A stretch of DNA of 64,000 bases from an uncultured Acidimicrobiaceae bacterium (GCA_963730345.1 CAVSRP010000037.1:46038-110037), one strand, 5' to 3'; counted from the stretch's first letter, positions 1 to 22,310 are shown. Numbers and translations are program-made. Notes: generated from the sequence alone by a model not told the origin.

Positions 1-1
1 C

Positions 2-5023: not shown

Positions 5024-5049
5024 CAACCGAATCGCACGGCAGACCTACA

Positions 5050-6089: not shown

Positions 6090-7622
6090 GTGCGTCGAGA
6101 AGGATCAAGCGATGCGGAAAGGGCTGAAGAAGCAGCGGAACGCGACCTCGCAGGCGAATCGATCGTCGGCACGCTCTGGTCCTGCTCCAGACCGTGGTCA
6201 TCAAGGTCAGCGGACTCACCGCCCAGATCGCGCTGGCGTATCTCCTCGTCCCCGGAGATTCGGGCTCATCGGCATCGCGTTGAGTATCACCGCGTTCGCC
6301 GACGTGCTGTACCAGAACAGCCTCGCCCAAGTCATCGTCCAGCGACGGGAGAATCTCGAGGAACGGGGCGCGTCGCTCTTCTGGCTCTCGATGGTGATGA
6401 GCGGCGTCGCGACCGTAGTGCTCATCGGCATCTCGCCTCTGATCGCGCGGATCTTCGATGCGCCTCGCGTCGCGCCGCTGATCGTCGTGCTCACATCGCC
6501 GTCCCCATGAACGGCGCCAGCGTCTTCCCGCGGTCTCGTCTATCGGCGACCTGCGTTTCCGTCGACTGGCCGCGATCAGCGGCGCGCAGTTCATGATCCA
6601 GAGCGTCACCTCGGTGGCCTTCGCAGCATGGGCCTCGGTGCCATGTCATTCGCCCTCGGCTACCCGATGTCCTCGCTGGCGGCGTGATCTGATATCCCAC
6701 CAGCGCCCCCCTATACGCCTCGTGGCGACCGCGCGTCGACTCGTCGCGACCGCTGGCCCAGGACACAGCCACGCTCGTCTCGACGAGCTGGCTGAACAAG
6801 GTCGTGGATTTCGGCGACTACTTCATCCTCGGCATCTTCGCCGACTCGACCGCCGTGGGTCTGTACTACTTCGCATTCCGACTGGCCGCCCAGACGGGAT
6901 CGATCGTGACCTCGAATGCAGCTCGGGTGCTCTTCCCGACCTTGCTGCAGGTTCCCTCGGGATCACGCCGGCAACACCGGTCCTTCATGCGAGCGGTACG
7001 CGTGCTCGCAGGGTTCGGGATCCCGCTCGCCATGATCTTTGTCGTCTACGGCGCCGACCTCCTGGCCGCGCTGTTCGACCCCCAGTGGAAGCAGGCCGCG
7101 CTCTTCGTGCAGGTCCTGAGCATTGCTTCGGCCACACGCACGGTGAGTGACAGCCACGCCAATCTGCTCAAGGCACAAGGTCGGTACCGAGAGTTGCTGC
7201 GCTGGAACATCGTTGGTACCGCGTGCTTTCTCGCCATCGTCACCCTCGGTGGCGCCGTCGACCAGGCAACCGGTGTGTGCGTCGCGGTGGTGATCCATGC
7301 CGTGGTGGGCGGTTGGATCGTCTACTACCTCACTGTGCGCCCATTCGGGAGTGACTTCTGGGAGTTCGGCCGGCTCGTCTCGGGCGCCCTGATCGCGTCG
7401 GCGTCGGTGGCGATCGCGTCGGTGCTGTTCATGCGCTTCACGCTGGGGTGGACCGAACCCAGCGCAGCCCGCCTGGTGCTGGGGTGTGCCCTGATGGGTG
7501 TGCTGTACCTACCCATACTCCACGTTGTCTCTCCTCCAACCAGCCGGGAGCTGCTCGAGGTCTCCCGCCGCGTCACCGGCCCGGTTTGGGTGAAGGTCCG
7601 ACGGGGCGTGGTGCCGAGGTAG
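6090..7622 (+). pseudogene. wzx: Wzx-like polysaccharide flippase (polysaccharide biosynthesis protein, MOP superfamily) broken by at least 6 frameshifts in its 5' half
   Basis: A continuous flippase-like sequence needs frame changes near 6180, 6260, 6493, 6531, 6630 and 6686. It reads ESIVGTLWS / LLQTVVIKVSGLTAQIALAYLLVPGD / FGLIGIALSITAFADVLYQ...PLIVVL / IAVPMNGASVFPR / DLRFRRLAAISGAQFMIQSVTSVAFAAW / GLGAMSFALGYPMSSLA / ...WLNKVVDFGDYFILGIFADSTAVGLYYFAFRLA. The last 272 codons (6804..7622) are open. Confidence 0.75.
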
Positions 7623-9017
7623 GAGGGCGAGCAGGACCCAGAACACGTGGGGAAAGCCGCTCGAGGTGAAATACGGGAAGATGAAGTGCATCACGAGGCT
7701 TCCCGGTATGACCGCGACGAGCGTCAGCGACACGGCCCGGTCGACGACGGCTCGGCCGTGTCGGTGCCGCCATGCCGCGCCGGCGGCAATGCTCATGAAC
7801 ACCAGGTAGGAGCCGAGCAGCAAGACACCACCGCGGAGGACCAGCGTGACGTAGAGGGACTCCGTGTGTTGCCAGTCGACACCGGGCGGGATCCCCGGGC
7901 CGAAGCCGAGCGGCCAGTACTCGGAGAGCGGCGCCTCGTAGTCGCCGCTCCAGATGGCGAGGCGATCGTCGATGTTCTTGCCCAGCACGGTGCCTGAGGT
8001 CGGGTCGTACTGCTGCTCGATCCGGTTCGTCAGAGCGCCCCCGGCAAAGGAGAACGCGGCGATACCCACGAGGGCGATGGCGACGAGCGAGCGTCCGGCC
8101 CGTCCTCCGGACATGGAGATCGCCAGCACCATGACAACAGTGACGGCGATGGCCGTCAGCGCCTGCGACAGCATCAAGCCACCAGCGATCACGATGGCCA
8201 TGGTGAACGCAGCGCGACGGACGGGGCGACTGACCTGGCGGTCGACGAGCACGGCGACGCACACGAGCAGGAGGGGCACCAGGAACCCGGCGAAGGAGTG
8301 CCAGTTTTCGTACAGACCGGTGGCACGGGCGCCGACGGAGGTGTTCTGGTAGCTCCACGTGTCGAAGATGCCACCCGAGGTGATGTTGGCCACGAAGCTG
8401 CGCACTCCGGGAACGTCGAGGTACTGGCCCACACCGACGAGCACGCTGGCGACGGAGCTGGCCACCAGGCAGCTCAGTGCCGCGGCTCGCTGACGGCGCG
8501 TGAGCGAGGCGCAGCGAATCGTCCAGTACATCAGGAAGAAGAGCGCGGGAGAGAATGCATCGCGCATGTCGTCGATCGACAGCCATTCGCCCCGTGAGAG
8601 CGGGTGGACAACTGTGAGCACCGCGGTCGCTGCGACGTAGGTGAGGGCTGCCGTATCGACGGCGTCGAGCCGACGGTGGCGTCCGGCCACACCTACCACG
8701 AGCACCGCGACCGCGATGGTCATCGCCTCGACCAGCTTGAGCTGGGGTATCGGAATGCCCCGGCCCAGACCCGCCAATGGCGGCACCGCCACTGCGAGGG
8801 TGATCGCGCCGACGGCGGGACGCTCGATGACGAGCAGTGCGAAGCCCATGGCGACCACGCCAGCGACGGCCAGGACCGGACTCTTCGCGGCTACGAAGCC
8901 AATCGCCACCGGACCGCCTAGGGCGACGGCGACCAGTACCGCGCCCGGAACCCGACCGCGTCGCGGCTCGTCGTCGTCCCGGACCGGCACCCTCGACGGT
9001 ACGACGATGTCAACCAT
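7509..9017 (-). CDS. O-antigen polymerase/ligase-family membrane protein (Wzy-like)
   Basis: 502-aa polytopic membrane ORF with a periplasmic-loop-like segment and Wzy_C-like organisation. It lies downstream of a Wzz-like gene in the same operon. Its 3' end overlaps the convergent wzx remnant by 114 bp. Confidence 0.65.
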   Translation of the reverse strand: MVDIVVPSRVPVRDDDEPRRGRVPGAVLVAVALGGPVAIGFVAAKSPVLAVAGVVAMGFALLVIERPAVGAITLAVAVPPLAGLGRGIPIPQLKLVEAMTIAVAVLVVGVAGRHRRLDAVDTAALTYVAATAVLTVVHPLSRGEWLSIDDMRDAFSPALFFLMYWTIRCASLTRRQRAAALSCLVASSVASVLVGVGQYLDVPGVRSFVANITSGGIFDTWSYQNTSVGARATGLYENWHSFAGFLVPLLLVCVAVLVDRQVSRPVRRAAFTMAIVIAGGLMLSQALTAIAVTVVMVLAISMSGGRAGRSLVAIALVGIAAFSFAGGALTNRIEQQYDPTSGTVLGKNIDDRLAIWSGDYEAPLSEYWPLGFGPGIPPGVDWQHTESLYVTLVLRGGVLLLGSYLVFMSIAAGAAWRHRHGRAVVDRAVSLTLVAVIPGSLVMHFIFPYFTSSGFPHVFWVLLALLPRHHAPSDLHPNRAGDAAGDLEQLPAGWRRDNVEYG

Positions 9018-9990
9018 CGAATATCGCCCATCGCACGGGCCGTCCCAACGACGACAGCAGAGTCATCCGCTGGTTGAGTGCCGCCACGGTGACACCCGGT
9101 CGAACGACGAGCACCACGATGGCGGCTTCGGACAGAGAACCAGTGTCCCGAGGTGCGGCGAGTCGGAGCTCGACGACTCCGCCGGACCCGTTGGGCCACT
9201 CGGGGGGCAGTGGTTCGGCGTCGATGATGCCTTCGAGCAGCGCCTTGGCCCGAGCGACCTCGCCGTCGCCGACGGTCACGAACACCACGTGTCCTTGGTC
9301 CTCGGCCAGTCCGACCCAGCGTTCCGCGAGCGCTCGAGCCGCAGACACGAAATCGGCCACCACCGTGGTCGGGACGCGGTCGATCACCTCGAGTTCCTCG
9401 ACGGTGTCGATCCGGGGGTGGGCGCGTTCCCAGAACACCACGATCACCACGCCGAGCGCGAGCCCGAGGATGGCGCCGACCGCCACGACCAGCGTCGACG
9501 AACGCACGGCATCGAGGGCCGGATCGTCAACCCGGACGACCTCCAACGAGCCCGGGGCCACCAGCGTCGTCGCCGGCTTGATCGCGGCGGCCACGAACGC
9601 GTCCATCACCGCGGCCGCCTCGTCCTCGGACGGTGCTCCCGACACCGTAACCTCGATGATCGATGTTCCGTCCACCGACGCCGTCGAGATCTGGTCCTGA
9701 ATGGCGTCGACATCGGTTCCGGAAGCGACGGAGGTCGCCTGCAGGATCTGGCGGTCCTGCGACAACAGGCGAGCATAAGTGGTCGCGAGTCGACTCGAGT
9801 CGGTCGCCGAACCGGAGAACGATCCGTCGGTGGAGCCATCAAATGCCGGCACCACGAGCACGGCGGTGGAGTGCCACGTCGACTTTGCGCTGCTGCTCGC
9901 CGCTCCGGCCGCCATCATGGCGAGCACCACCGTCACCACGACGATCCACGCACGACGGTGGACGACGGCGATTACCTTGTTGAGAATCAC
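9010..9990 (-). CDS. Polysaccharide co-polymerase (Wzz-like chain-length determinant) with a degenerate BY-kinase-like C-terminal tail lacking a Walker A motif
   Basis: GTG at 9990 overlaps the upstream stop (GTGA). Two TM segments (AWIVVVTVVLAMMAAGAA; LVVAVGAILGLALGVVIVVFW) flank a ~170-aa extracytoplasmic domain. The tail has HVVFVTVGDGEV where the P-loop would be. Confidence 0.6.
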   Translation of the reverse strand: MILNKVIAVVHRRAWIVVVTVVLAMMAAGAASSSAKSTWHSTAVLVVPAFDGSTDGSFSGSATDSSRLATTYARLLSQDRQILQATSVASGTDVDAIQDQISTASVDGTSIIEVTVSGAPSEDEAAAVMDAFVAAAIKPATTLVAPGSLEVVRVDDPALDAVRSSTLVVAVGAILGLALGVVIVVFWERAHPRIDTVEELEVIDRVPTTVVADFVSAARALAERWVGLAEDQGHVVFVTVGDGEVARAKALLEGIIDAEPLPPEWPNGSGGVVELRLAAPRDTGSLSEAAIVVLVVRPGVTVAALNQRMTLLSSLGRPVRWAIFDG

Positions 9991-11000
9991 GCTTCGCCTC
10001 CGACCCGCAGCACGTCGTGCAGTTCCTCGAGTTGGAACAACCAACGCTCATGCTGGCGCGCCGAGGCCTCGGGCGCAGCGTCGAGCAGGGCATCGAGATC
10101 GGTGGAGACTCGTTCGAGACCGCGACGGACCCCGTCGACGTCGTTCGATACCAGCACGGCGTGCTCGAAGAGCAGGCGATTGACATCCTGATCGGTGGCT
10201 ATGAGCGGTCGGCCGGCGTAGACGGCCTCGTAGGCGGCCCGCATGACCGATGTCGGCTCCGTGGTCAGGGCGAGGACAGCGTCCGCGTCGTGTAGTGCCT
10301 GCTGGTAGGACAGTGGATCGAGGTAACCACAGAAGGTCACGTTGGGTGGCGCCTCCTCCACGAGGCCCGACGGTGCCCGGCGGAGATCGCCGGTGATGAT
10401 CACCTCGACGTTCGGCACCAGGGCGGCCGCCTGCAACACCGCGGCCACGGGCTCGTCCGGGCTGAAGACGCAAACGAACAACACCGTGATCGCCTTCGGG
10501 TCCCGATCCGGCGCCCAACCAAGCTCCCCGGGTCGTATGGTCGGGGGCGCCTCGTGCACCACGATGGCGCGGGCGTCCCAACCGCCGACGACCTGCTGCC
10601 ACTCGCTGGTGGTGACCATGGTCGCGGTCGCCCTCCGAGCGAGCCATCGGTGGATGGGGAGCAGGCGCTCCGACAGCCGATCGCCCTTCCGGCCGAAGGC
10701 TGACGGGTGGCTGTCGAGCACCAAAGGCGCGCCCGAGATGCGGCAGTACATCCACGCCACCAGTCCTGGGAAGACGGGCGGCAACGTCACGATCACCGAT
10801 CTCGGACGTCGGAGCACCAGGTAGACCAGGGTCTGCACGCTGCTCAACACGTAGCGCAGGGGGACCAGACGACGCGACGTGAGACGCCGGTCGTAGATCA
10901 CCTTCGCCTCCCCTCCCAGCGCGTGCGCGATCTCGGCCGAGCGACCGGGCACGAAGCTCCACGCCAGGAACGACACCGTTGGACGCCGCATCGGAGTCAC
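9987..11000 (-). CDS. Glycosyltransferase (GT-B fold, GT4-like)
   Basis: 337-aa ORF. The C-terminal half (VLFVCVFSPDEP...AVLALTTEPTSVMRAAYEAVYAGRPLIATD) resembles a retaining GT-B transferase. Operon context supports this. Confidence 0.65.
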   Translation of the reverse strand: MTPMRRPTVSFLAWSFVPGRSAEIAHALGGEAKVIYDRRLTSRRLVPLRYVLSSVQTLVYLVLRRPRSVIVTLPPVFPGLVAWMYCRISGAPLVLDSHPSAFGRKGDRLSERLLPIHRWLARRATATMVTTSEWQQVVGGWDARAIVVHEAPPTIRPGELGWAPDRDPKAITVLFVCVFSPDEPVAAVLQAAALVPNVEVIITGDLRRAPSGLVEEAPPNVTFCGYLDPLSYQQALHDADAVLALTTEPTSVMRAAYEAVYAGRPLIATDQDVNRLLFEHAVLVSNDVDGVRRGLERVSTDLDALLDAAPEASARQHERWLFQLEELHDVLRVGGEA

Positions 11001-11095
11001 GTCGGGCGGTCCACGGGCCCGGTACGGTCGGATCTCGGTTCGGGCGGAGTGGCCATCACCCCGTCATGTTCTCGCATGCCTGCGCCCATGTCCGG

Positions 11096-12151
11096 TCACT
11101 TCGCCCGGGCCAGCCCGGTTGGAGACCGACCGTCCGCTCCGGGACGGCTGGCGGCGTCGAGCGCGCCGCGCCGCAGTTCGACCCGGCGCAGCACTCTCGC
11201 GGCCGCGTCTTCGACCGCCCAGATCCGTAGGTGACCTCCGGCGTTCAGCACGGCCCGAACGAGCGCATTGACGACGCGGTGGATGACCCGTCGATCGGTC
11301 GCTTCGACCACCTGTCGCAGGACTGGTGGGAGATCGCGGCTCAGCTCATCGACATCGAACGCGGCCAGGTCGCCGTGACGGCGGTACAGCTCCCACCGGC
11401 CCGCGCCCTGCCGATAGGCGTCGCGCATGAACTGCTCAGTGGTGCGGTGGTGGTCGTGGGTGGCGGCCAATCGACGGTCGAACACGGCATGGATGCCGTG
11501 CTCCTTCATGCGCAAGCCGAGGTCCCGATCGTTGTGGTTTACCGCGGGGTAGTCCGGGTCGTATACGCCGACGGCGAGCCACGCGCGGCGGTCGAGCGAG
11601 ACGTTGCCGGACCACAGCGCGTCGAGAATCCGTTCGTGGTGGCCCTCCCACGCAGTGACGTGGCGCTCGTATTCGTCTGCGTAGAAGCGGGTCGCGTACT
11701 GGCCCGGAGCCCTAGGCGCCGGAACCGCGGTGGGCATGTAGCCGACCACGGCCAGGGTCGGGTCCCCCGCCCGATGGTGCCGTGCCTGATGACCGGACAC
11801 CAGCCCGGGACCGGCGACGACGTCGTCGTCCAACATCAACACGACGTCGCCAGTGGCTGCCTCGGCGCCGAGCTGTCGAGCGGCCGCGGCTCCGGCACCG
11901 TGCCCCCGGACCGATCGAACACGAGCGCCCTCACGTCGAAGTTCCTCGATGACGATGGCGGTGTCGTCGACGGATGCGTCGTCGGCGATCACGATCTCCG
12001 TGGTGGCGGGATCGTCCAGGATCGCCTCGATGGCCGCCCGGAGCTGGCTGCTCCGGTTCCTGGTGGGAATGACGACAGAGACCGTCGGAGGTGCGGTTGC
12101 GTCGCCCATGGCGGGCTCATGGTAGCCAGCGAGATGGGCCCGACCCGCCAT
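11096..12151 (-). CDS. Glycosyltransferase family 2
   Basis: VSVVIPTRNRSSQLRAAIEAIL...IVIADDASVDDT...VLMLDDDV is a classic GT2 N-terminus. ATG at 12151 or 12109 are both possible starts. The track ORF extension to 12823 overlaps the upstream GT2 gene. Confidence 0.8.
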   Translation of the reverse strand: MAGRAHLAGYHEPAMGDATAPPTVSVVIPTRNRSSQLRAAIEAILDDPATTEIVIADDASVDDTAIVIEELRREGARVRSVRGHGAGAAAARQLGAEAATGDVVLMLDDDVVAGPGLVSGHQARHHRAGDPTLAVVGYMPTAVPAPRAPGQYATRFYADEYERHVTAWEGHHERILDALWSGNVSLDRRAWLAVGVYDPDYPAVNHNDRDLGLRMKEHGIHAVFDRRLAATHDHHRTTEQFMRDAYRQGAGRWELYRRHGDLAAFDVDELSRDLPPVLRQVVEATDRRVIHRVVNALVRAVLNAGGHLRIWAVEDAAARVLRRVELRRGALDAASRPGADGRSPTGLARAK

Positions 12152-12185
12152 CGTGCTCGGTCGTCCGACACGGACGGCGACGACA

Positions 12186-13181
12186 TCATCTGAAGCGCAT
12201 CCCGAGGAGCCGGCGTGCGATCCGCCTCGGCGCGACGCCCACGAGCACGGCCCATACCGACCGCCGCACGCGGCTGCGCACGGGGTGTCCCGGGTGGGTC
12301 GCCGCCGCCTTGGCCGCTCGAAGGGCGAGCAACGGACGTCGATCTCCGGGGTGCGGGTGGAGGTCGGGTTCGATGACGAGGGATCCCAGCCGGTAGGCGA
12401 GATAGGCCGGATCGATGAGGGACTCGACCCGCGATGGAGGTCGAGCCGACGCCGGTGAGCGTTCGACGACCAGTCGGTGCAGGCGCTCGATCCGCTCCAT
12501 TTTGCGTCGGAGGAACGCACCGTCGACCTGGTGGCCGGCGAAGTTGTTCGATCCATGGACCCGATAGCCGACCACGGGCTCGTCGAGCGCGGAGATCGGT
12601 CCCTCGAGGACGATGAACGTGGCGAGGTAGAGGTCGGCCTCGATCCGAAAGTCCTCGGTCGGGATGGGCATGCAGTGCGCCAGTGCCGATCGCCGGTAGC
12701 AGTTGCCGCTCGAGGCCGGCCACACGTAGCTGCGACGGTGGAGTGCCAACGTCCGGAGGTCGCCCCGTGGGAGCTGCCAGGTCGCCGGTGGGCGCGTCGT
12801 ACCGGTGAACCTCCCCTCGCCATCGATCACTCGGAGGCGGGAGGCGACCTTGACCGACGATGGATCTTCGGCGAACGCGTCGACGAACGCTCGCAAGGCC
12901 CCCGGGAGCAGGACATCGTCGGCGTCGAGGAAGACCACGAGCTCGCCGCCCGTCGCCGAGAAGCCCGAGTTCATCGCCGACGCCTGGCCCCCGTTCGGCT
13001 GGGCGATGATCTTTGCCTGCGACCGGTACGCGGCGAGGACGTCGAGCGACTCGTCGGTCGAGCCGTCGTCCACCACGACGATCTCCACGTCGACACCCTC
13101 CTGGCCGATCACGCTGTCGAGTGCAGCGGCCACGTACCGGGCGTAGTTGTGGTTGCTGATGCAGACGCTGACCGTCGTCAT
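12186..13181 (-). CDS. Glycosyltransferase family 2
   Basis: MTTVSVCISNHNYARYVAAALDSVIGQ...VVVDDGSTDES...FLDADD are GT2 signature motifs. It is the first gene of the minus-strand operon running 13181->7509. Confidence 0.85.
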   Translation of the reverse strand: MTTVSVCISNHNYARYVAAALDSVIGQEGVDVEIVVVDDGSTDESLDVLAAYRSQAKIIAQPNGGQASAMNSGFSATGGELVVFLDADDVLLPGALRAFVDAFAEDPSSVKVASRLRVIDGEGRFTGTTRPPATWQLPRGDLRTLALHRRSYVWPASSGNCYRRSALAHCMPIPTEDFRIEADLYLATFIVLEGPISALDEPVVGYRVHGSNNFAGHQVDGAFLRRKMERIERLHRLVVERSPASARPPSRVESLIDPAYLAYRLGSLVIEPDLHPHPGDRRPLLALRAAKAAATHPGHPVRSRVRRSVWAVLVGVAPRRIARRLLGMRFR

Positions 13182-13339
13182 ACCGCACTCCGAACGCGTC
13201 GATCCGAGCCGACTTCGGTGCCGGGCCAGGGACGGGCGGCACAGGATGGCGCGCCGGCGACGATTCGGAACGGACGCCCGCCGGAGTTCGGGACGGTTGG
13301 AAACGGTGGGGGCGATCCGCCGTCGAGTGGAATCCTCTC

Positions 13340-13345
13340 TAGCAT
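13340..13345 (+). promoter_or_regulatory. Candidate -10 element (TAGCAT) placed for a leaderless transcript of the 13352 gene
   Basis: A TANNNT hexamer ends 6 nt before the ATG at 13352. No Shine-Dalgarno sequence lies between them. Actinobacterial leaderless mRNAs typically show this geometry. Confidence 0.3.
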
Positions 13346-13351
13346 CGGCGC

Positions 13352-14260
13352 ATGCAGCTCCATCGTGTGTTCCCGGCGCTCAACAGGCGTCGAGGAGCCG
13401 TGGCGGCGGCTGTCGCTGCCATCGCGATGATGACAGCCGCGATCATCTTCTGGGCCGCTCGTACCGGACGTGACGATCTTCGCTTGTCCTGGGCGCCCCC
13501 GCGGTTGGAGGACCCGGTCACCATCTCGGTGCCGGTCCGCGGCGGCCAGTTCGAGCTCGACCCCGGTCGGGACTACCAGGTCGTGCTGGCCCGGGCTCCT
13601 GTCACCGGCGCGGTGTCCCTCGTCGGGGGACACAATGTCGTCCTGGTCGGTGGTGAGCTCGACTTCGATGGTGGCGCGCCCGGGGTGCTCTATTTCAAGA
13701 ACTTCACCGGCACGCTCCACGTCGAGGGCCTGCGCATCGACCCCGGCGGTTCCCGCGGCATCGAGGCCGACGCGATCCGGGTCGCCTCCACAGCCGACGG
13801 GTCGACGGCCCAGTTCGAGAACATCTACGTCCGGCGCGTCGGTGGTTCGTACGACGGTGTTCACGGCGACCTCATCCAGACATGGGGCGGCCCGTCCCGT
13901 CTGCGGGTGGATCGCTTCACCGGGTACTCCGACTACCAAGGTCTCTACCTCGCCCCGAACGATGCGGACTGGCACGCCCGCGTCGTGGCCATGGAATTCC
14001 GCAACATGGATCTGCACGGTGTCGACGACGGGACCTTCAACATGCTCTACGACATCTCGGGCCGGGGTGGCGAGCCACCCACGCCGGTGCAGCACAACCT
14101 CTGGGCTGCGGTCGACCACGGGTCGAAGATCGCCAACGAACAGTGGTCGATCGGCAGCGTCGACGGGATCCGCCGGGGCGACGCGAATGGCAAACCGGGC
14201 GCCCAGTTCGTCGATCCGAGCACGGTTGGCATCGGCTACCGAAGCCCCGGATACCGCTGA
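13352..14260 (+). CDS. Membrane-anchored or secreted protein made almost entirely of the same ~255-aa domain found at the C-terminus of the 1704..3548 product (beta-helix-like, possibly polysaccharide-active)
   Basis: N-terminal hydrophobic segment AVAAAVAAIAMMTAAIIFWAA. Motifs shared with the paralog: LSWAPP, GRDYQVV, VVLVGGE, TGTLHVEGL, LRVDRFTGYSDYQGLY, GIGYRSPGYR. Confidence 0.7.
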   Translation: MQLHRVFPALNRRRGAVAAAVAAIAMMTAAIIFWAARTGRDDLRLSWAPPRLEDPVTISVPVRGGQFELDPGRDYQVVLARAPVTGAVSLVGGHNVVLVGGELDFDGGAPGVLYFKNFTGTLHVEGLRIDPGGSRGIEADAIRVASTADGSTAQFENIYVRRVGGSYDGVHGDLIQTWGGPSRLRVDRFTGYSDYQGLYLAPNDADWHARVVAMEFRNMDLHGVDDGTFNMLYDISGRGGEPPTPVQHNLWAAVDHGSKIANEQWSIGSVDGIRRGDANGKPGAQFVDPSTVGIGYRSPGYR

Positions 14261-14276
14261 AGCGTCGGCCTGATCA

Positions 14277-17245
14277 CGAGAGTCGGACGACCGAGAGCCC
14301 CTGGATCTGCGGGTTCTGGACCTGGGTCACGAACCCCAACGACAACACCCCATCCGACACCGTCACATCGAAGCTCTGATCGAACGCCGCATTCGCCCCC
14401 ACCGCCGCCACCGCATCCAGATCCCGCAACACCGGCGAACCCTCGGCATCCACCCCGAACACCCGCTGCCCCGAAGCCGTGAAATAGATCTCCGCGATCC
14501 GCAACGTCACCCGATACGTCCCCGCCGCCGGCACCGGCACCGCATACCCCGACATCGAATAACGCTGCGACCGATACAACCCGTCATCAGCCGTCCCCGA
14601 GATGTTCACCGACGACGCCGAATACGTCTTCCCACCCACGAAGTACTGATCCGCACCCCACACCTGCCCCGCCGAATCCGTGAACGACGACGACGACCCC
14701 GCATTGATCCGCACCACGAAACCCGACGGCGGCGGCAACGGCGCCATGGTCAGATCCGCGGTCACCGACCCCCCCGCCGTCACCGACACCCCCACCGGCG
14801 ACGACGACGAGAACCCCGACGCCGACGCCACCACCTGATACGAACCCGCCTCGACGGAAATCACGTACGACCCATCAGGACTGGTCGTCGTCGACGTCCC
14901 ACACGCCTCCGACGTCGGACACACCTGCACCGTCGCCCCCGGCAACCGATCACCTCAGGACTGGTCGTCGTCGACGTCCCACACGCCTCCGACGTCGGAC
15001 ACACCTGCACCGTCGCCCCCGCAACCGGATCACCCGACGACGACGACACCGTGCCGAGCACGGAACCAGGAGCCGGCGGTGGCGTCGTGTCGAGCTGCAC
15101 CACCGAGAGCCCCTGGATCTGCGGGTTCTGGACCTGGGTCACGAACCCCAACGACAACACCCCATCCGACACCGTCACATCGAAGCTCTGATCGAACGCC
15201 GCATTCGCCCCCACCGCCGCCACCGCATCCAGATCCCGCAACACCGGCGAACCCTCGGCATCCACCCCGAACACCCGCTGCCCCGAAGCCGTGAAATAGA
15301 TCTCCGCGATCCGCAACGTCACCCGATACGTCCCCGCCGCCGGCACCGGCACCGCATACCCCGACATCGAATAACGCTGCGACCGATACAACCCGTCATC
15401 AGCCGTCCCCGAGATGTTCACCGACGACGCCGAATACGTCTTCCCACCCACGAAGTACTGATCCGCACCCCACACCTGCCCCGCCGAATCCGTGAACGAC
15501 GACGACGACCCCGCATTGATCCGCACCACGAAACCCGACGGCGGCGGCAACGGCGCCATGGTCAGATCCGCGGTCACCGACCCCCCCGCCGTCACCGACA
15601 CCCCCACCGGCGACGACGACGAGAACCCCGACGCCGACGCCACCACCTGATACGAACCCGCCTCGACGGAAATCACGTACGACCCATCAGGACTGGTCGT
15701 CGTCGACGTCCCACACGCCTCCGACGTCGGACACACCTGCACCGTCGCCCCCGCAACCGGATCACCCGACGACGACGACACCGTGCCGAGCACGGAACCA
15801 GGAGCCGGCGGTGGCGTCGTGTCGAGCTGCACCACCGAGAGCCCCTGGATCTGCGGGTTCTGGACCTGGGTCACGAACCCCAACGACAACACCCCATCCG
15901 ACACCGTCACATCGAAGCTCTGATCGAACGCCGCATTCGCCCCCACCGCCGCCACCGCATCCAGATCCCGCAACACCGGCGAACCCTCGGCATCCACCCC
16001 GAACACCCGCTGCCCCGAAGCCGTGAAATAGATCTCCGCGATCCGCAACGTCACCCGATACGTCCCCGCCGCCGGCACCGGCACCGCATACCCCGACATC
16101 GAATAACGCTGCGACCGATACAACCCGTCATCAGCCGTCCCCGAGATGTTCACCGACGACGCCGAATACGTCTTCCCACCCACGAAGTACTGATCCGCAC
16201 CCCACACCTGCCCCGCCGAATCCGTGAACGACGACGACGACCCCGCATTGATCCGCACCACGAAACCCGACGGCGGCGGCAACGGCGCCATGGTCAGATC
16301 CGCGGTCACCGACCCCCCCGCCGTCACCGACACCCCCACCGGCGACGACGACGAGAACCCCGACGCCGACGCCACCACCTGATACGAACCCGCCTCGACG
16401 GAAATCACGTACGACCCATCAGGACTGGTCGTCGTCGACGTCCCACACGCCTCCGACGTCGGACACACCTGCACCGTCGCCCCCGCAACCGGATCACCCG
16501 ACGACGACGACACCGTGCCGAGCACGGAACCAGGAGCCGGCGGTGGCGTCGTGTCGAGCTGCACCACCGAGAGCCCCTGGATCTGCGGGTTCTGGACCTG
16601 GGTCACGAACCCCAACGACAACACCCCATCCGACACCGTCACATCGAAGCTCTGATCGAACGCCGCATTCGCCCCCACCGCCGCCACCGCATCCAGATCC
16701 CGCAACACCGGCGAACCCTCGGCATCCACCCCGAACACCCGCTGCCCCGAAGCCGTGAAATAGATCTCCGCGATCCGCATCGTCACCCGATACGTCCCCG
16801 CCGCCGGCACCGGCACCGCATACCCCGACATCGAATAACGCTGCGACCGATACAACCCGTCATCAGCCGTCCCCGAGATGTTCACCGACGACGCCGAATA
16901 CGTCTTCCCACCCACGAAGTACTGATCCGCACCCCACACCTGCCCCGCCGAATCCGTGAACGACGACGACGACCCCGCATTGATCCGCACCACGAAACCC
17001 GACGGCGGCGGCAACGGCGCCATGGTCAGATCCGCGGTCACCGACCCCCCCACCGTCACCGACACCCCCACCGGCGACGACGACGAGAACCCCGACGCCG
17101 ACGCCACCACCTGATACGAACCCGCCTCGACGGAAATCACGTACGACCCATCAGGACTGGTCGTCGTCGACGTCCCACACGCCTCCGACGTCGGACACAC
17201 CTGCACCGTCGCCCCCGCAACCGGATCACCCGACGACGACGACAC
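14277..17245. repeat. Tandem array of four near-identical 732-bp (244-codon) coding cassettes
   Basis: Identical shadow ORFs at 15079, 15811 and 16543 give a period of 732 bp. The copies differ only at 16780 (t vs a; Met/Leu) and 17052 (a vs g; Val/Ala), plus the array ends. Confidence 0.95.
14875..15034. repeat. 80-bp direct tandem duplication inside the last cassette
   Basis: 14875-14954 and 14955-15034 are copies that differ only in ggcaaccgatcacc vs gcaaccggatcacc. 80 is not a multiple of 3, so the frame shifts and a stop appears at 14861. Confidence 0.9.
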
Positions 17246-19429
17246 CACCCCCGACACCGTCCCCGGCGCGATGTACGGACCTGACACCGTCCGACCCCAC
17301 AGCGATACCGGACGCGGGTACCACTCGCCGTTCTGCAGCCCCTGGGTGTCGAAGATCATCGACTCGAACGTCCCGCTGCGCAGACCGTCCGAGCGTGAGC
17401 CCCAGACCTCCACGAGTTTCGGCGCGTCGGGGACCCAGGTCGACCACGTCGGGTGGTTCTTGTGGATCCAGGCCCCGACCACGTCACCGTCGAATGCCTT
17501 CGACACCCATGTCACCTGGTCGACGCTGGAGACGGGCGTGACGCAACTCGAACAACCCCGCTGCGCCGCGACCTGGTTGGCGCGAAGAGCGCTGTTGAGC
17601 CAGGACAGATTGGCATCTAGGACCGCGTTGCTGCCGAGCAGGGCGGCGTAGAGCAGCGAGTCGCCCAGTGCGCCCGGAGCGGCGGTGGCCCCGCTGAGCG
17701 ACGTGTCCTCGTTGACCTGGTTGATGAACGGATGGACGGCCGTCAGGTGGCGCTGGGCCAGCGTGGCGTAGCTCGGGCCGCTGGACGGGGTCTTGCCTCG
17801 CGCGCCCGCGATCGACAGGACGACGCCGATCTTGGTGGTGAGGACGGTGTGTCCCGCCTCGACCTGGTGAGCGGCCCTGGTCGCACCGTCATAGGTCGTG
17901 CCCAGGTTCGAGGTGCGGCACGCGCCGCCGTTCGGGAGACATGCCGTCATCGACGTGACGTCGAGCGTGCCGTCGGCATCCACGTCGTGGGCTTCGATCG
18001 CAGCCAGCATCCGCCGGATGAAGGCGTCGTCGTAGGTCTGGCCGGTTCGCTGCTCCCACAACATCGCCATCGCCACGACGTCGATGTCCTCCTCAGCGGC
18101 CATGTGTCGCCGATCGCCCGGCTTCAGGTCATAGGCCTGGCCGGCGGTGAGCAGTGTGGTCTTGCCGAGATCGTGGAGGATGTACTGGTTCCCATCACCG
18201 TCGACCTCGTAGTGCGCCTTCCACTGGTCGAGCTCGAGCTTGGACTTCCATGGCTCGAACTCGGTCTGGAACGGATGCACCTCGTAGGCGACGTCGACGG
18301 TCGACAGGTAGCCGAAGCCGCCCTCCGTGATGGTCCAGAACGGGTCACCACCCGGAGTCCGGGTGAGCTTGCCGTTGTGGCGGTAGCCGTGGACCGCTCG
18401 CGCCGCCGACCAGCGGGTGGGACCGTCGCTAGCGACATCGGCGGTTCGGCTGTCGAACGCCGAGGATGCGGCGAACGCGGTGGTCTCGGAGGTAATGGCG
18501 GCATCGAGCATGGCGACGGCGTTGGCCCACCAGCCGAGGTAATAGAACGGCATCGCCTGCCCGCTGACCGAGGTGAGGGGTGCCTGCGTGTTCCAGGCGC
18601 CGTAGACGAGCGTGGTGCTCCAGCTCTCCCCCACCGCGAGGGACGGTATGGCGTAGGCGACGCCACCCTGGCCGCTGCTCGCCGACGAGTCGAGGTCACC
18701 GTCGGCCGCGAAGTCGCTGGTGAGGTTGTTGCCGCTCCCGAAGGTTGCACCGGCCGTCGGGGCCGCGAGGTACCGAGTCCCGCCGTGGTCACCGGAATTG
18801 CAGTAGCGAAGTGTCCGATATCCAGCCCGGGGGCTGCTGGTGATGTCGGGCCCGCATCTCGACCCAAGGGCCAGCATGAACGCGGACGCGGACGACGCCG
18901 AGGTCCCGGTGTTCTCGACGAAGAGCCGCAGGTACATGAAGGGGCCGTTGGAGAGCTTCGACTCCACGGAGTCGACGGTGGTGCTCGGGGCGAGCGGATC
19001 GGTGACCTGGAAGGTGAACCGCAAGGCCCCGCCGCGCTCCCTGGACGAGCGTCGAGGTGGGTGTGACCCCGACGCGTGCTCCGTCGAGAACGGGAGTCGA
19101 GCCCGCGGTGGGGGGAAGCTTCCCGGTCGTCCCGTCCGCGGTGTGCACGAGTGCCGTGAAGCCGGCATCGGTGCCCCGTTCGCCGGCGCTGTAGTCGTGA
19201 GCCGCCGAGGACACCACCGACGACGCGCCGAAGTTGAAGTTGAGATCGAGTGCGTGATCGCCGTTCTCGATCGAGTCGGTGACCGGGTCGTTGAGCCACT
19301 GGTCGGGGACCATCGGCGCTGCTCCGGGCGTTGCCGCAACGGGTGTCGCCGACGCGAGCGTGAGTCCCGCCGCGCTCAGCGCGACCACGACCGTTGCTCG
19401 AACAAATCGCGCGAAGGCGGGCGATCCGG

Positions 19430-20380
19430 TCATGGGGCGCCGGCTCTCACTGCCGGCTTGACCCGCGCTCCGTGGTCGGTCCACCAGGACTTGACTCGGT
19501 CGAATCCGACCTCGAGGTCATAGAAGGCCAGGTAGCAGAGGACGAGACCGAGGAAGCTGATGTCGAGGAGCACCAACGTCCCGAGGTGGAAGCTGACCAT
19601 GACGGCCAGGTAGATGTCGCGGATCCGACCCCGGAAGAACAGCAGCGGCGACAGCGCTTCGGTCAGCACTGTGACCGCGGACATCGCCTCGATGATGCCC
19701 GGGTGGCGGGCGACGCTCAGACCGAGAGACTGCTGCTTCTCGATGAGAACCTCGTTCAGGGCGCCGCTGTGGATCCAGCCGAGGCCCTGGGCGCGCAATT
19801 TCGAATAGGCCGCGAACGCGTAGGCGCAGACGACGACGACCATGACGAGTCGCAACGCCCAGCCGGCGAGCACGTCGCGCGGTTCCGACTCGGCGCCGGC
19901 GTCGTCATCGGTGGGCCCTCGCTTGTTCCGGCGGCGGAGGTCGTCGATCGAGTACGCGGCACCTGCTGGTGCGACGGCAAGTGCGAACAGCGAGAGCACG
20001 ATGGGGACCCGTCCGTGCTCGATGGCGTGGAACGAGTAGAAGGTGCCGAACCAGTAGGTGTACAAGATCGCCGACACCCACAGGGAGACACGGGTCCAGA
20101 GACCGATCAGGGCACAGGCCAGGGCCACGATGAGGACACCGCGGACGATGGTGGTGGCCCCGGGTCCGAGGCGGGGTACCTGCAGGATCCGGAAGAGCAG
20201 GATCGGCTGGTGGAACGCCGCGTCGACGCGTGAGAAGCGACTCATGTAGGACGACACGAACGCGATGTCGATCAGCGCGTAGGCCGTGAGCACGATGCGG
20301 AACAGCGACAACCGGCGAACCGGCACCGCCGGGAACCAGAACTGCTGCCACCGATCGACGACCGCGTTCACTCCGCCCAC
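19430..20380 (-). CDS. HTTM-domain (vitamin K-dependent gamma-carboxylase-like / SdpB-like) polytopic membrane protein
   Basis: The N-terminus DRWQQFWFPAVPVRRLSLFRIVLTAYALIDI is the typical HTTM start. There are about 8 hydrophobic segments. The stop overlaps the giant gene start (ATGA at 19430-19433). Confidence 0.7.
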   Translation of the reverse strand: MGGVNAVVDRWQQFWFPAVPVRRLSLFRIVLTAYALIDIAFVSSYMSRFSRVDAAFHQPILLFRILQVPRLGPGATTIVRGVLIVALACALIGLWTRVSLWVSAILYTYWFGTFYSFHAIEHGRVPIVLSLFALAVAPAGAAYSIDDLRRRNKRGPTDDDAGAESEPRDVLAGWALRLVMVVVVCAYAFAAYSKLRAQGLGWIHSGALNEVLIEKQQSLGLSVARHPGIIEAMSAVTVLTEALSPLLFFRGRIRDIYLAVMVSFHLGTLVLLDISFLGLVLCYLAFYDLEVGFDRVKSWWTDHGARVKPAVRAGAP

Positions 20381-20880
20381 CTCGCGACTTCCACGACCTG
20401 CACGTCGTCATCGGGGTCGAGCGGAAGTTGGCGGTAGACGAGCACGGCTCGCACCGCGTCCTGATCATTCCAGCCCTCCCACGCGCTGACGAGCTCACTC
20501 ATCCGCTCGTCGATCTTGCGTCGAGGGTGACCGTTGCGGTCGGCCACCTCGCCGGTCATGAACACGACGTACTGGTGTCGCGTCAGGCCGAAATCGTGCG
20601 CACCGGCGACGAACTCCTTGCCGCTGACCGTGGTCACGATCAGTTGCGGATCGACGGTGAAGGTCCGCTCCTCCCGGAACATCGGGAAACCGGGAACCGG
20701 CCATGTTCCGTTGCGGAGCGTGAGACCTGATCCCAACTGAACGACCACGATGGCCACCGTGACGAGTGACACCACACCGATCACCCATCGAGGATGGGGC
20801 AGGGGAGTTGCGGGCTCAGCCGGACGCTCGTCGACGTCGGCTCGCCCCCCTCTGCTGACCAACGCTCGTGCTCGCGCCAT
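20368..20880 (-). CDS. Small membrane-anchored protein of unknown function, first gene of the HTTM operon
   Basis: ATG at 20880 (MARARALV...). There is one TM segment (WVIGVVSLVTVAIVVVQL) followed by a ~125-aa soluble domain. It overlaps the HTTM start by 13 nt. The track ORF extension to 21039 is Arg-rich and unlikely. Confidence 0.55.
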   Translation of the reverse strand: MARARALVSRGGRADVDERPAEPATPLPHPRWVIGVVSLVTVAIVVVQLGSGLTLRNGTWPVPGFPMFREERTFTVDPQLIVTTVSGKEFVAGAHDFGLTRHQYVVFMTGEVADRNGHPRRKIDERMSELVSAWEGWNDQDAVRAVLVYRQLPLDPDDDVQVVEVARWAE

Positions 20881-21080
20881 CGTCCCCGTCTCCGCCACTC
20901 CGTTTCCGGTTTCCTGCCCCTTCCACGATGGCAAAGTCGCGAGGCTCTTCGGTCCGAATGGCGGCATTTCATGGCCTCTGCACGCGCGTCGTCGTCGCCG
21001 CGAAGGGTGGGCGCCACTCACCGGAGGCAAGGACGCCACCTCCCCTACGGAACGTGACGCGCGTCTGATGACGAGATCGC

Positions 21081-22310
21081 TCAGGCCGACCGACGCTGGT
21101 TCAACACAAGCACGTTGTCGTGGAGGATCTTGCGCTGGTCAGCGGCCGCCAGGTGCTCGACCTCGGGCACGTACTGGAGCGGCTCGGGCAGCGCCTCGAT
21201 GTGGGGCCAGTCGCTGCCGAAGAGCACCCGGTCGACGCCCATGTTGTCGACCACCTCGTCGATCTGGTCCTCCCAGAACGGGTTGATCCAGATGTGCCGG
21301 CGAAACGTCTCGACCGGATCCTCGGGGAACCACCCGTTCATCTTGCGGGCGACGACCCGCAGGCGGCCGAAGAGCCCACGCAGGTAGGTGCTGCCGTTCT
21401 CGACGCTGGCGACGCGCAGGTTGGGGAACCGGTGGAACAGGTTGTCGCCCACCAGCGCGGCGAGGAAGTCCTCGATGGGGCGCTCGAGCTGGAGCATCCG
21501 GATGGGCTGGGGCACGCCGCTGAAGTCGGTGGTGAAGCCGTCGCGGGCGTAGCCATGGCTGGTGTACCCGGCGTCGCCGGCGTGGACCACGACGGTCACC
21601 CCGGCTTCGTTCGCCCGGGCCCAGAACGGGTCGAACATCGGATCGGTGGGTGGCTTCTGCCCGGCGAGCGTGGTCGGAGCGGCCGGGCGCATGACGATGG
21701 TGCGAGCATCGTGGTCGAGCGCCCACTCCAGCTCCCGACAGGCCCAGTCGACGTCGACGAGCGGGATGTACGGGCCGGCGAAGATGCGGTCGCGGTAGGC
21801 GAAGCCCCAGTCCTCCTCCAGCCACCGGTTGAACGCGGTGAACAGCAGGGTGACGGCCTCGGGGTCGTGGTGGAGCGGCTCCTCGTAGATCATGCCCAGG
21901 GTGGGGAACAGCCACACCGCGCCGACGCCTTGCGCATCCATGGTGGCCAACCGGGCGTCGCGGTCCCGGTACTCCGGCCGGATGGGCTCGTGCCGGCCGA
22001 GGAGCTCGAGCGGGTTGTCACCGTTGGGGTTGCCGCGGAAGTAGTCGGCGAGCACCCCGGGGAACGCCACCGGGTCGAACGTGGCGTTCTTGACCCCGCG
22101 GAAGACCTTCCCGCCGAGCACCGGGTACGTGCGGCCCTCGATCTGGGCCCACTGGAACACCCGGGTCGCGTGGCGGGGGTCGAGGTGGCGGCTGAAGGCA
22201 TCGAGCGCCTCGTAGTAGTGGTTGTCGGCGTCGAAGGGTCGGTACCCCAAGGCGTCGACCGCCTGCGCCGCGTCACCTGGGCCAGCCTCGGTCATGACCA
22301 TGTCTGACAT
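21081..22310 (-). CDS. Amidohydrolase-2 family metal-dependent hydrolase (PF04909-like)
   Basis: FDADNHYYE near the N-terminus and VLFGSDWPH near the C-terminus. ATG at 22310 (MSDMVMTE). The longer track ORF overlaps the ligase gene. Confidence 0.8.
   Translation of the reverse strand: MSDMVMTEAGPGDAAQAVDALGYRPFDADNHYYEALDAFSRHLDPRHATRVFQWAQIEGRTYPVLGGKVFRGVKNATFDPVAFPGVLADYFRGNPNGDNPLELLGRHEPIRPEYRDRDARLATMDAQGVGAVWLFPTLGMIYEEPLHHDPEAVTLLFTAFNRWLEEDWGFAYRDRIFAGPYIPLVDVDWACRELEWALDHDARTIVMRPAAPTTLAGQKPPTDPMFDPFWARANEAGVTVVVHAGDAGYTSHGYARDGFTTDFSGVPQPIRMLQLERPIEDFLAALVGDNLFHRFPNLRVASVENGSTYLRGLFGRLRVVARKMNGWFPEDPVETFRRHIWINPFWEDQIDEVVDNMGVDRVLFGSDWPHIEALPEPLQYVPEVEHLAAADQRKILHDNVLVLNQRRSA

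What the first reader, a model, noticed from the sequence alone, without database searches (positions are those of the whole stretch)
14274..20880. Three-gene unit: small membrane protein, HTTM-domain protein, then a giant secreted glycosidase/lectin, linked by overlapping stop/start codons
All three genes are co-directional on the minus strand. The small protein's stop (20368) lies 13 nt inside the HTTM gene. The HTTM stop and the giant gene's ATG form an ATGA overlap at 19430-19433, so tight co-expression is expected. HTTM domains are the bacterial relatives of the vitamin K-dependent gamma-carboxylase membrane domain. The SdpB-type members act together with SdpA to mature the secreted SdpC product encoded by the third gene of sdpABC. 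Here the third gene is a ~1700-aa signal-peptide-bearing GH116-like enzyme with four lectin cassettes. That suggests an undescribed pairing: an HTTM membrane enzyme that modifies, anchors or helps export a giant carbohydrate-active surface protein, or that modifies its polysaccharide substrate.
Basis: partly seen in the sequence, partly recalled or inferred. Interest (0 to 1): 0.75.

Follow-up and report, generated by a model that had tools for sequence, protein, structure and literature searches.

The report
Conserved HTTM enzyme–glycosidase gene trio
Three translationally coupled genes (a one-helix membrane protein, a relative of the vitamin K-dependent carboxylase, and a secreted sugar-cleaving enzyme) stay adjacent in polysaccharide-synthesis loci of uncultured soil actinobacteria, which gives a testable lead on what bacterial carboxylase relatives do, although the glycosidase reading frame is broken twice in this sequence.

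Summary
The three co-directional genes and their stop/start overlaps are real. The ATGA overlap lies at 19430-19433. The small-to-HTTM junction is a 4-nt GTGA overlap, conserved in all 24 related loci.

The 316-aa protein misses Pfam HTTM on its own. However, 17 of 23 relatives hit that model, and the family profile matches human gamma-glutamyl carboxylase (GGCX), with counterparts of Lys218, Trp223, Asp263, His160 and Phe299.

The small protein belongs to a rare family without any Pfam or NCBIfam model. It is not SdpA or DUF5819 by sequence.

The "giant gene" is not one ORF. It has a 1-nt insertion near 19019-19030 and an 80-bp tandem duplication at 14875-15034. Its catalytic domain is GH52-like (clan GH-O) rather than demonstrably GH116. 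It carries four near-identical CarboxypepD_reg+malectin cassettes.

The trio is adjacent in 19 of 20 related loci, in two gene orders, inside three different polysaccharide cluster types. The small+HTTM pair also occurs without the glycosidase, once fused to a Wzx flippase.

Best reading: a split, GGCX-like, menaquinol-dependent enzyme that faces outward and works with the secreted glycosidase. Its target is unproven and could be the enzyme or the glycan. This is a new variant of a known kind.

The parts
20368..20880 (-). Small single-pass membrane protein. It is 170 aa from the ATG at 20880. The deposited version is 199 aa from the ATG at 20967.
   Evidence: ORF. One hydrophobic segment at aa 33-51. 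AF2 model has mean pLDDT 86, helix 31-54 and an alpha/beta domain at 74-169. Positional homologues are 32-34% identical. The family has 33 representatives among 1.84 billion proteins. No Pfam or NCBIfam hit.
20677..20706 (-). Conserved motif T-W-P-V-x-G-F-x-M-F just after the TM helix (P61 and M67 invariant, F68 nearly invariant).
   Evidence: Alignments A2 and A3. Low pLDDT in the isolated model. Inferred to be the contact with the HTTM quinone pocket, by analogy with Leu59/Phe60 of DUF5819.
19430..20380 (-). HTTM-family (GGCX-like) polytopic membrane protein. It is 316 aa from the GTG at 20380. The more likely form is 313 aa from the GTG at 20371, which gives the GTGA overlap with the small gene's stop.
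   Evidence: 79 homologues, most with precomputed PF05090. 17 of 23 aligned members hit Pfam HTTM, best E 2.8e-18. Profile A1 matches human GGCX at E 1.7e-4 over profile positions 19-276. Six to seven hydrophobic segments.
19799..19801 (-). [quoted passage not shown]
   Evidence: Invariant column in A1. Aligned to K218. The role of Lys218, Trp223 and Asp263 is taken from PMC12647623. W202 (19775-19777), E241 (19658-19660), H122 (20015-20017) and F276 are also invariant.
14274..19433 (-). Secreted GH52-like glycosidase with four lectin cassettes. Restored length is about 1692 aa. In this sequence it is interrupted at two sites.
19350..19433 (-). Sec-type signal peptide (MTGSPAFARFVRATVVVALSAAGLTLASA|TP).
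   Evidence: Read from the sequence. The full-length homologues have hydrophobic signal-like N-termini; four start downstream of that segment. There is no lipobox and no twin-arginine motif.
19019..19030 (-). Site of the 1-nt insertion (GGGGCCTTGCGG) that shifts the reading frame.
   Evidence: Deleting one base gives ...LVQGARR(G/A)LRFTFQVT..., which aligns without gaps to 24 homologues. The same break is present in the sibling assembly L007.
17262..19027 (-). GH52-like (clan GH-O) catalytic region. The putative nucleophile Glu is at 18323-18325, in the motif TEGGFGY.
   Evidence: Pfam PF03512, E 1.2e-10, 41.4 bits against a cutoff of 25. The profile hits only GH52 beta-xylosidases in the PDB, E 2.9e-7. 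The Glu aligns with E335 of XynB2. Foldseek on a low-confidence model ranks GH52 first and GH116 second.
14274..17246 (-). Four tandem 732-bp cassettes (17246-16515, 16514-15783, 15782-15051, 15050-14274). Each holds a CarboxypepD_reg-like domain and a malectin domain.
   Evidence: Self-BLAST gives 99.4-99.9% identity. Pfam Malectin E 1.9e-83 and CarboxypepD_reg E 6.8e-49, three copies each in the long ORF plus the fourth in ORF 14274..14945.
14875..15034 (-). 80-bp tandem duplication inside cassette 4. It breaks the reading frame a second time.
   Evidence: TRF reports period 80, 2.0 copies, 97% matches. Self-BLAST aligns 15034-14955 with 14954-14875.

Best explanation
This is a conserved three-gene module found in actinobacterial Wzx/Wzy-type polysaccharide loci.

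Shown:
- The single-pass small protein and the HTTM protein are always encoded as a translationally coupled pair.
- The HTTM protein keeps counterparts of the GGCX residues that bind and deprotonate vitamin K hydroquinone: Lys194/Lys218, Trp202/Trp223, Glu241/Asp263 and Phe276/Phe299. It also keeps His122/His160.
- The third gene encodes a Sec-secreted clan GH-O (GH52-like) glycosidase, extended here by four lectin cassettes.

Inferred:
- The small protein and the HTTM protein form a two-subunit, 'split GGCX-like' enzyme. The small protein's TM helix and extracytoplasmic domain would complete the outward-facing quinol pocket.
- The enzyme would use the cell's own menaquinol (and O2) for C-H activation, carboxylation or redox chemistry.
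- Its most likely client is the co-translated glycosidase as it emerges from Sec. This would be a post-translocational modification or maturation step, following the logic of GGCX with Gla proteins and SdpAB with SdpC.
- The matured enzyme would then bind, through its malectin modules where present, and trim the polymer made by the surrounding cluster.

In this particular sequence the glycosidase reading frame is broken twice. The cause is either long-read consensus error or genuine decay.
For: - Pair: the 4-nt (A/G)TGA overlap between the small gene and the HTTM gene occurs in 24 of 24 loci, including distant ones. The small proteins are homologous across loci.
- HTTM identity and catalytic residues. 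Residue roles come from PMC12647623.
- An independent AF3 study of DUF5819+HTTM-DCC1 pairs shows the same architecture rebuilding the whole GGCX shape around Lys189/Trp195/Phe273.
- Some relatives are fused to a DCC1-like thiol-disulfide oxidoreductase. This fits a need to recycle an oxidised quinone.
- GH linkage: 19 of 20 loci, in two gene orders (small-HTTM-GH and GH-small-HTTM) and three unrelated flanking cluster types whose GT2 genes are only 30-37% identical.
- The three genes keep together while their flanks differ between the window and L007.
- The full-length GH homologues carry signal-like N-termini.
- Characterised HTTM enzymes act on protein or peptide substrates.
Against: - The window protein itself fails the Pfam HTTM model.
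- No propeptide or Gla-like acidic target motif could be identified in the GH.
- The small+HTTM pair occurs without the GH in L012, L013 and L033. One GH homologue lacks the pair (L032).
- The small domain is fused to a Wzx flippase in L033, which points toward the glycan pathway rather than a protein client.
- The small-protein model has no significant structural or sequence match to GGCX or anything else in the PDB.
- No complex model could be computed.
- No biochemical data exist.
Confidence: 0.4

Rival explanations
1. The small+HTTM enzyme acts on the glycan pathway rather than on the glycosidase. It would modify the flipped polyprenyl-linked repeat unit or the nascent polymer at the outer face of the membrane. 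One possibility is abstraction of a proton alpha to a uronate carboxylate, leading to carboxylation, epimerisation or oxidation. The glycosidase would be a separate polymer-processing enzyme kept in the same outer-face tailoring block.
For: - The pair lies in polysaccharide loci even where the GH is absent (L013).
- In L033 the small domain is fused to a Wzx flippase and is followed by HTTM::DCC1.
- The trio always lies among GT2/GT4, flippase, Wzy, priming transferase and often sulfotransferase genes.
- GGCX has a tunnel for a polyprenyl tail.
Against: - No HTTM enzyme is known to act on a glycan.
- The flanking glycosyltransferase sets differ between cluster types while the module is conserved, so a common glycan feature would be required.
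- The flippase fusion is a single representative and could be a gene-calling or frameshift artefact.
- The Egicoccus pair is not in an obvious polysaccharide cluster.
Confidence: 0.3
2. The pair is a quinone-coupled membrane dock or electron-transfer module for extracytoplasmic carbohydrate-active enzymes. It would tether or energise them without covalently modifying either protein or glycan.
For: - In Egicoccus halophilus the pair is followed, with overlapping codons, by a polytopic membrane protein, a GMC-family FAD oxidoreductase and a small Tat-signal protein. This resembles membrane-bound sugar dehydrogenases.
- L013 also encodes a GMC oxidoreductase.
- The GH has no anchor of its own; there is no lipobox or sortase motif.
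Against: - A retaining GH52-like hydrolase needs no redox partner.
- Conservation of the GGCX quinol-deprotonating residues argues for catalysis rather than docking.
- There is no evidence of an interaction.
Confidence: 0.12
3. The adjacency is inherited cluster structure without direct functional coupling. In this genome the module is decaying, and the broken glycosidase is a true pseudogene.
For: - All close homologues come from one narrow group of uncultured soil Actinomycetes.
- The 1-nt insertion is shared by two assemblies.
- A Mutator transposase lies in the adjacent cluster, and the priming transferase gene is also split.
Against: - Adjacency survives a gene-order change and three different flanking contexts.
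- Coupling codons are conserved.
- Both sibling assemblies carry private indels in otherwise intact genes, which is typical of long-read consensus error.
- The four cassettes are 99.4-99.9% identical, so the array is recent or actively homogenised.
Confidence: 0.1

Closest known systems
SdpA-SdpB-SdpC (and YitP-YitO-YitM) of Bacillus subtilis
   Same: The operon logic is the same: a small protein, then an HTTM membrane protein, then a signal-peptide-bearing secreted protein. SdpA and SdpB are required to process SdpC (PMC6818787).
   Different: - No member of either family here hits the SdpA or SdpB models (TIGR04034, TIGR04033) at E<=1.
- The third gene is a glycosidase of about 1700 aa, not a toxin precursor of about 200 aa.
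- The context is a polysaccharide locus.
- The order GH-small-HTTM also occurs.
DUF5819 + HTTM(-DCC1) two-protein complexes (AF3 prediction, bioRxiv 10.64898/2026.08.19.745780)
   Same: - The partner has an N-terminal TM helix plus a small extracytoplasmic domain and is encoded next to an HTTM protein.
- The HTTM protein is fused to DCC1 in some relatives.
- A conserved Lys/Trp/Phe triad surrounds the quinol site: K194/W202/F276 here, Lys189/Trp195/Phe273 there.
   Different: - The small protein is not recognised by the DUF5819 model and has no Pfam family.
- The link to a glycosidase and to polysaccharide loci is not described there.
- No complex model was obtained here.
[quoted passage not shown]
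   Same: The profile matches across the HTTM region. Counterparts of Lys218, Trp223, Asp263, His160 and Phe299 are present.
   Different: - There is no fused luminal clamp domain; a separate small subunit is presumed to replace it.
- Asn159 is not conserved.
- The substrate is unknown.
- The E-value is only 1.7e-4.
GH52 beta-xylosidases (XynB2; PDB 4rhh, 4c1o, 8qme) and clan GH-O partner GH116
   Same: - The Pfam GH52 hit is above the curated cutoff.
- The nucleophile Glu motif aligns.
- The best fold matches are GH52, followed by GH116.
   Different: - Only about 120 to 270 residues align by sequence.
- This enzyme is secreted, whereas characterised GH52 xylosidases are, to my knowledge, intracellular.
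- It carries lectin cassettes.
- Its specificity is unknown, and the acid/base residue was not located.
Hydrolases and lyases encoded in exopolysaccharide operons (PslG, PelA, BcsZ, AlgL; named from my own knowledge)
   Same: A secreted or periplasmic polymer-cleaving enzyme is encoded inside the biosynthetic locus.
   Different: The fold family is different. None of these is known to be paired with an HTTM enzyme.

Membership tests
HTTM / VKGC-like (Pfam PF05090) | The protein itself matches the Pfam HTTM model. | tested here: not met
   No Pfam family at E<=0.01 or at E<=10 for window 19430-20380.
HTTM / VKGC-like (Pfam PF05090) | Close relatives match the model, and the family profile matches the HTTM region of a solved GGCX. 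| tested here: met
   17 of 23 aligned members hit PF05090, best E 2.8e-18. Profile A1 against human GGCX gives E 1.7e-4 over positions 19-276.
HTTM / VKGC-like (Pfam PF05090) | Catalytic Lys (GGCX Lys218) with its Trp223, Asp263 and Phe299 neighbours. | tested here: met
   K194, W202, E241 and F276 are invariant in 23 sequences and align to these residues. F276 is off by one column. Roles come from PMC12647623.
HTTM / VKGC-like (Pfam PF05090) | Quinol- and O2-dependent carboxylase or epoxidase activity. | not testable with these tools
   Needs biochemistry.
SdpB family (TIGR04033) | Match to the NCBIfam model. | tested here: not met
   None of the 23 members hit it at E<=1.
SdpA family (TIGR04034) / Pfam SdpA / DUF5819 | Match of the small protein or its relatives to the models. 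| tested here: not met
   30 family members were scanned against Pfam and NCBIfam at E<=1 with no such hit.
SdpA family (TIGR04034) / Pfam SdpA / DUF5819 | Architecture: an N-terminal TM helix plus a small outward-facing domain, encoded next to and coupled with an HTTM gene. | tested here: met
   TM at aa 31-54 and domain at 74-169. 4-nt overlap in 24 of 24 loci. This is a resemblance only, not proof of homology.
GH52 (Pfam PF03512) | Model match above the gathering score. | tested here: met
   41.4 bits against 25, E 1.2e-10, covering profile positions 92-347 of 413. All 24 homologues carry PF03512.
GH52 (Pfam PF03512) | Catalytic nucleophile Glu (E335 of XynB2). | tested here: met
   The invariant Glu in TEGGFGY aligns with NEGEY.
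GH52 (Pfam PF03512) | Acid/base Asp and beta-xylosidase activity. | not tested
   The sequence alignment does not reach that region, and the AF2 model is too poor (mean pLDDT 51.5).
GH116 | Sequence or fold match better than to other families. | tested here: not met
   No GH116 chain at E<=1 with the family profile. Foldseek ranks GH116 below GH52, using a low-confidence model.
Malectin (PF11721) + CarboxypepD_reg (PF13620) cassettes | Model matches, four copies. | tested here: met
   Three copies in ORF 14861..19339 and one in 14274..14945. The DNA repeats have a period of 732 bp.

The most novel reading that the evidence does not exclude
The pair is the first vitamin-K-type (menaquinol/O2-driven) HTTM enzyme that works in extracellular polysaccharide biosynthesis. 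It would either install carboxyl groups, or otherwise activate C-H bonds, on a lipid-linked or nascent glycan (for example alpha to a uronate carboxylate). Alternatively it would gamma- or beta-carboxylate a secreted glycosidase so that it binds Ca2+ and an anionic, often sulfated, polymer. Either case would extend GGCX chemistry beyond animal Gla proteins and one antibiotic pathway.
Probability: 0.2. Interest if true: 0.85.

Novelty: new variant of a known kind. Interest (0 to 1): 0.58.

Why it matters
Apart from SdpB and MloH, the function of bacterial relatives of the vitamin K-dependent carboxylase is essentially unknown. This locus gives a recurrent, rearrangement-resistant genetic link between three elements: a two-subunit HTTM enzyme that keeps the quinol-activating residues, a specific secreted glycosidase family, and polysaccharide export. 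That link names concrete candidate substrates. It also suggests a simple experiment: express an intact homologous trio with and without the pair, then look for mass changes in the glycosidase or the polymer. In addition, the finding defines an unannotated accessory-subunit family and a distant, secreted branch of GH52.

Tried and rejected
- Exact look-up of the window's HTTM protein (P0001) found no contig on record.
- The genome-contig scan gave only 6 loci and did not return the source genome.
- Small-protein model against the PDB: nothing below E 0.06, TM <= 0.24, and no GGCX.
- Small-family profile against PDB sequences: nothing.
- ORFs next to the distant HTTM genes (L002-L006, L027, L028) were scanned to harvest DUF5819 sequences for a profile-profile test. 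None had any Pfam hit.
- A DCC1-like domain was searched for in the window by tblastn. None was found.
- Rfam on 13500-22000 gave no RNA element.
- The sigma-70 promoter and terminator scan was uninformative.
- The plasmid collection gave only a 26% identical Novosphingobium hit.
- The AF2 model of the GH domain was poor (mean pLDDT 51.5), so the acid/base residue could not be located.
- A disulfide-oxidation (DsbB/VKOR-like) role for the pair was considered and set aside, because neither the HTTM nor the small family has a conserved cysteine.
- Programmed frameshifting was considered and rejected, because all 24 homologues are single ORFs.


Full report
OBSERVATION

The minus strand between 14274 and about 20967 carries three co-directional genes. 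The HTTM-like ORF ends ...GCC CCA TGA, and the next gene starts at the ATG of ATGA, at 19430-19433.

The small gene stops at 20368-20370. However, the in-frame GTG at 20371 gives a GTGA 4-nt overlap. That is the start of the deposited 313-aa protein (P0001). It is also the arrangement in every one of 24 related loci, so it is the likelier start.

The third gene is not a single ORF. It begins in one frame, with a Sec signal peptide MTGSPAFARFVRATVVVALSAAGLTLASA. It continues in a second frame as ORF 14861..19339 and returns to the first frame for the last 223 codons.

- The first break is a 1-nt insertion within 19019-19030. Removing one base yields a protein that aligns without a gap to 24 intact homologues across the junction.
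- The second break is an 80-bp tandem duplication at 14875-15034, inside the fourth of four 732-bp cassettes. These cassettes are 99.4-99.9% identical to each other.

A sibling assembly, L007 (an ENA contig), is essentially identical over the small and HTTM genes. It shares the 1-nt insertion. It also has a private indel that splits its HTTM gene, and it has split DegT and GFO_IDH genes. The window in turn has a private 1-nt deletion that splits the priming glycosyltransferase at about 269. Consensus error in long-read assemblies is therefore plausible for at least some of these breaks. I cannot tell whether the two breaks in the glycosidase are real.

WHAT THE PARTS ARE

(a) The 316-aa protein

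It gives no Pfam or NCBIfam hit by itself, even at E<=10.

At family level the assignment holds:
- It has 79 homologues, and most carry PF05090.
- 17 of 23 aligned members hit Pfam HTTM, with a best E of 2.8e-18.
- The family profile matches human GGCX structures at E 1.7e-4 over 258 positions.
- The invariant residues K194, W202, E241, H122 and F276 align with GGCX Lys218 (general base), Trp223, Asp263, His160 and Phe299. Their roles are taken from PMC12647623.
- Some relatives carry a C-terminal DCC1-like thiol-disulfide oxidoreductase domain. The window has none.

(b) The small protein

- It has one TM helix (aa 31-54) and a confidently modelled alpha/beta domain.
- Its positively charged N-terminus suggests an N-in, C-out topology. 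This is an inference.
- It belongs to a family with only 33 representatives among 1.84 billion proteins.
- The family has a conserved TWPVxGFxMF motif just after the helix.
- There is no Pfam or NCBIfam match, including DUF5819 and SdpA.
- There is no structural or sequence match in the PDB.

(c) The third gene

- It encodes a distant GH52 relative: Pfam 41.4 bits against a cutoff of 25.
- The family profile hits only GH52 beta-xylosidases in the PDB, at E 2.9e-7.
- The nucleophile Glu is conserved.
- Foldseek on a poor model ranks GH52 first and GH116 second.
- It is followed by four CarboxypepD_reg + malectin cassettes.
- "GH116-like" is the right clan but not the closest family.

CONTEXT AND CONSERVATION

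Downstream of the unit lies a polysaccharide biosynthesis cluster. It contains two GT2 genes, a GT4, a flippase, a Mutator transposase and a priming transferase. Upstream are an amidohydrolase, a DNA ligase and an SDR.

I surveyed loci reached three ways: from the HTTM protein, from the glycosidase and from the small protein. I used my own HMM scans for the survey.

- Every HTTM homologue at or above about 47% identity with enough flank has both the small gene and a GH52-like gene adjacent. That covers the window plus 18 loci.
- One glycosidase homologue (L032) has no pair within 10.9 kb.
- Two gene orders exist. Small-HTTM-GH is the more common. GH(+2 cassettes)-small-HTTM::DCC1 occurs in L008, L014 and L030.
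- The flanking clusters fall into three types whose adjacent GT2 genes are only 30-37% identical. The trio itself is 45-55% identical for HTTM and GH, and 32-34% for the small protein.
- At 37-40% HTTM identity the small+HTTM pair persists without the glycosidase. In L013 it lies in a polysaccharide locus. In L012 (Egicoccus halophilus) it is followed by a polytopic membrane protein, a GMC FAD oxidoreductase and a Tat-signal protein.
- In L033 the small domain is fused to the C-terminus of a Wzx flippase and is followed, with a 4-nt overlap, by HTTM::DCC1.
- More distant HTTM genes (<=31% identity) have neither partner.

MECHANISM

The universally coupled small+HTTM pair, the retained quinol-activating residues and the frequent DCC1 fusion all fit a two-subunit, GGCX-like enzyme with an outward-facing active site that uses menaquinol.

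A 2026 preprint reached the same architectural conclusion for DUF5819+HTTM-DCC1 pairs by AF3. In those models the TM helix and small domain of the partner rebuild the GGCX shape around Lys189/Trp195/Phe273. Residues just after the TM helix touch the quinol pocket. I infer that the TWPVxGFxMF motif plays that role here.

The enzyme's target is not shown.
- The near-perfect, rearrangement-resistant linkage to the secreted glycosidase favours the glycosidase as client. So does the precedent of GGCX, MloH and SdpAB-SdpC. I put this at about 0.4.
- The pair's wider association with polysaccharide loci, together with the flippase fusion, favours a glycan or lipid-linked substrate. I put this at about 0.3.
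- A docking or electron-transfer role, and mere inherited adjacency, are less likely.

COMPARISON AND NOVELTY

The module works like SdpABC and like the DUF5819-HTTM pairs. It fails their sequence membership tests.

The HTTM protein is a divergent family member. The glycosidase is a divergent, secreted GH52-like enzyme.

I found no paper that links an HTTM or carboxylase homologue to polysaccharide loci or to glycosidases.

I rate it a new variant of a known kind. Interest is moderate. The association is real and gives a testable lead on bacterial HTTM function. On the other hand, it is confined to uncultured soil Actinomycetes, the chemistry is unknown, and the glycosidase is broken in this particular sequence.

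Noticed in passing
window 1-1713 (+), break near 269: The priming glycosyltransferase (Bac_transf + GT4) is split by a 1-nt deletion relative to the sibling assembly L007, where it is an intact 621-aa gene. L007 in turn has private indels in its HTTM, DegT and GFO_IDH genes. Both assemblies look like error-bearing long-read consensus.
   Followed up: partly
window 1-3430 and 15543-21096 versus L007 1-3431 and 9276-14836: The two nearly identical assemblies place the three-gene unit differently. In L007 it is separated from segment 1-3430 by 5.8 kb of other sugar genes (hexapeptide transferase, DegT, GFO_IDH, DUF4012), and the order is swapped. The window has instead 3431-14273. Possible causes are rearrangement, a second copy, or misassembly. 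This is unresolved.
   Followed up: partly
window 4076-5023 (+): A Mutator-family transposase (Pfam E 2.6e-95, profile positions 96-378 of 379, so N-terminally truncated) sits inside the polysaccharide cluster, next to a flippase fragment at 6693-7622 that matches only the C-terminal half of its model.
   Followed up: no
L033 3944-7296: A Wzx-type flippase (Polysacc_synt_3, E 1.8e-53) is fused at its C-terminus to the small-protein domain. It is followed, with a 4-nt overlap, by an HTTM::DCC1-like gene. No GH52-like gene lies on the 8-kb contig.
   Followed up: partly
L012 9534-13615 (Egicoccus halophilus): A distant small+HTTM pair is followed, with overlapping codons, by a 260-aa polytopic membrane protein, a GMC-family FAD oxidoreductase and a 136-aa Tat-signal protein. 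This layout recalls membrane-bound sugar dehydrogenases. L013 also has a GMC oxidoreductase nearby.
   Followed up: partly
L009, L010, L011, L013, L031, L032: One or two sulfotransferase genes (Sulfotransfer_1/3), and in L031 an APS kinase, lie close to the trio or the GH homologue. The associated polymer is therefore probably sulfated in these clusters. No sulfotransferase was seen among the window genes that were scanned.
   Followed up: no
window 13352-14260 (+): A convergent 302-aa gene ends 13 nt from the glycosidase stop. It has an N-terminal hydrophobic segment and no Pfam hit. Its sequence pattern (GGHNVVLVGG...) suggests a beta-helix-like secreted protein, but this is unverified.
   Followed up: no
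L003 8327-10855 (Angustibacter sp.): Two tandem distant HTTM paralogues, with no small-protein or GH52-like partner.
   Followed up: no
window 19225-15543 versus 21096-19226: Differences between the window and L007 are concentrated in the glycosidase gene: about 60 substitutions (many C to T) and 24 indels. The 1.9 kb covering the small and HTTM genes differs by a single indel.
   Followed up: no
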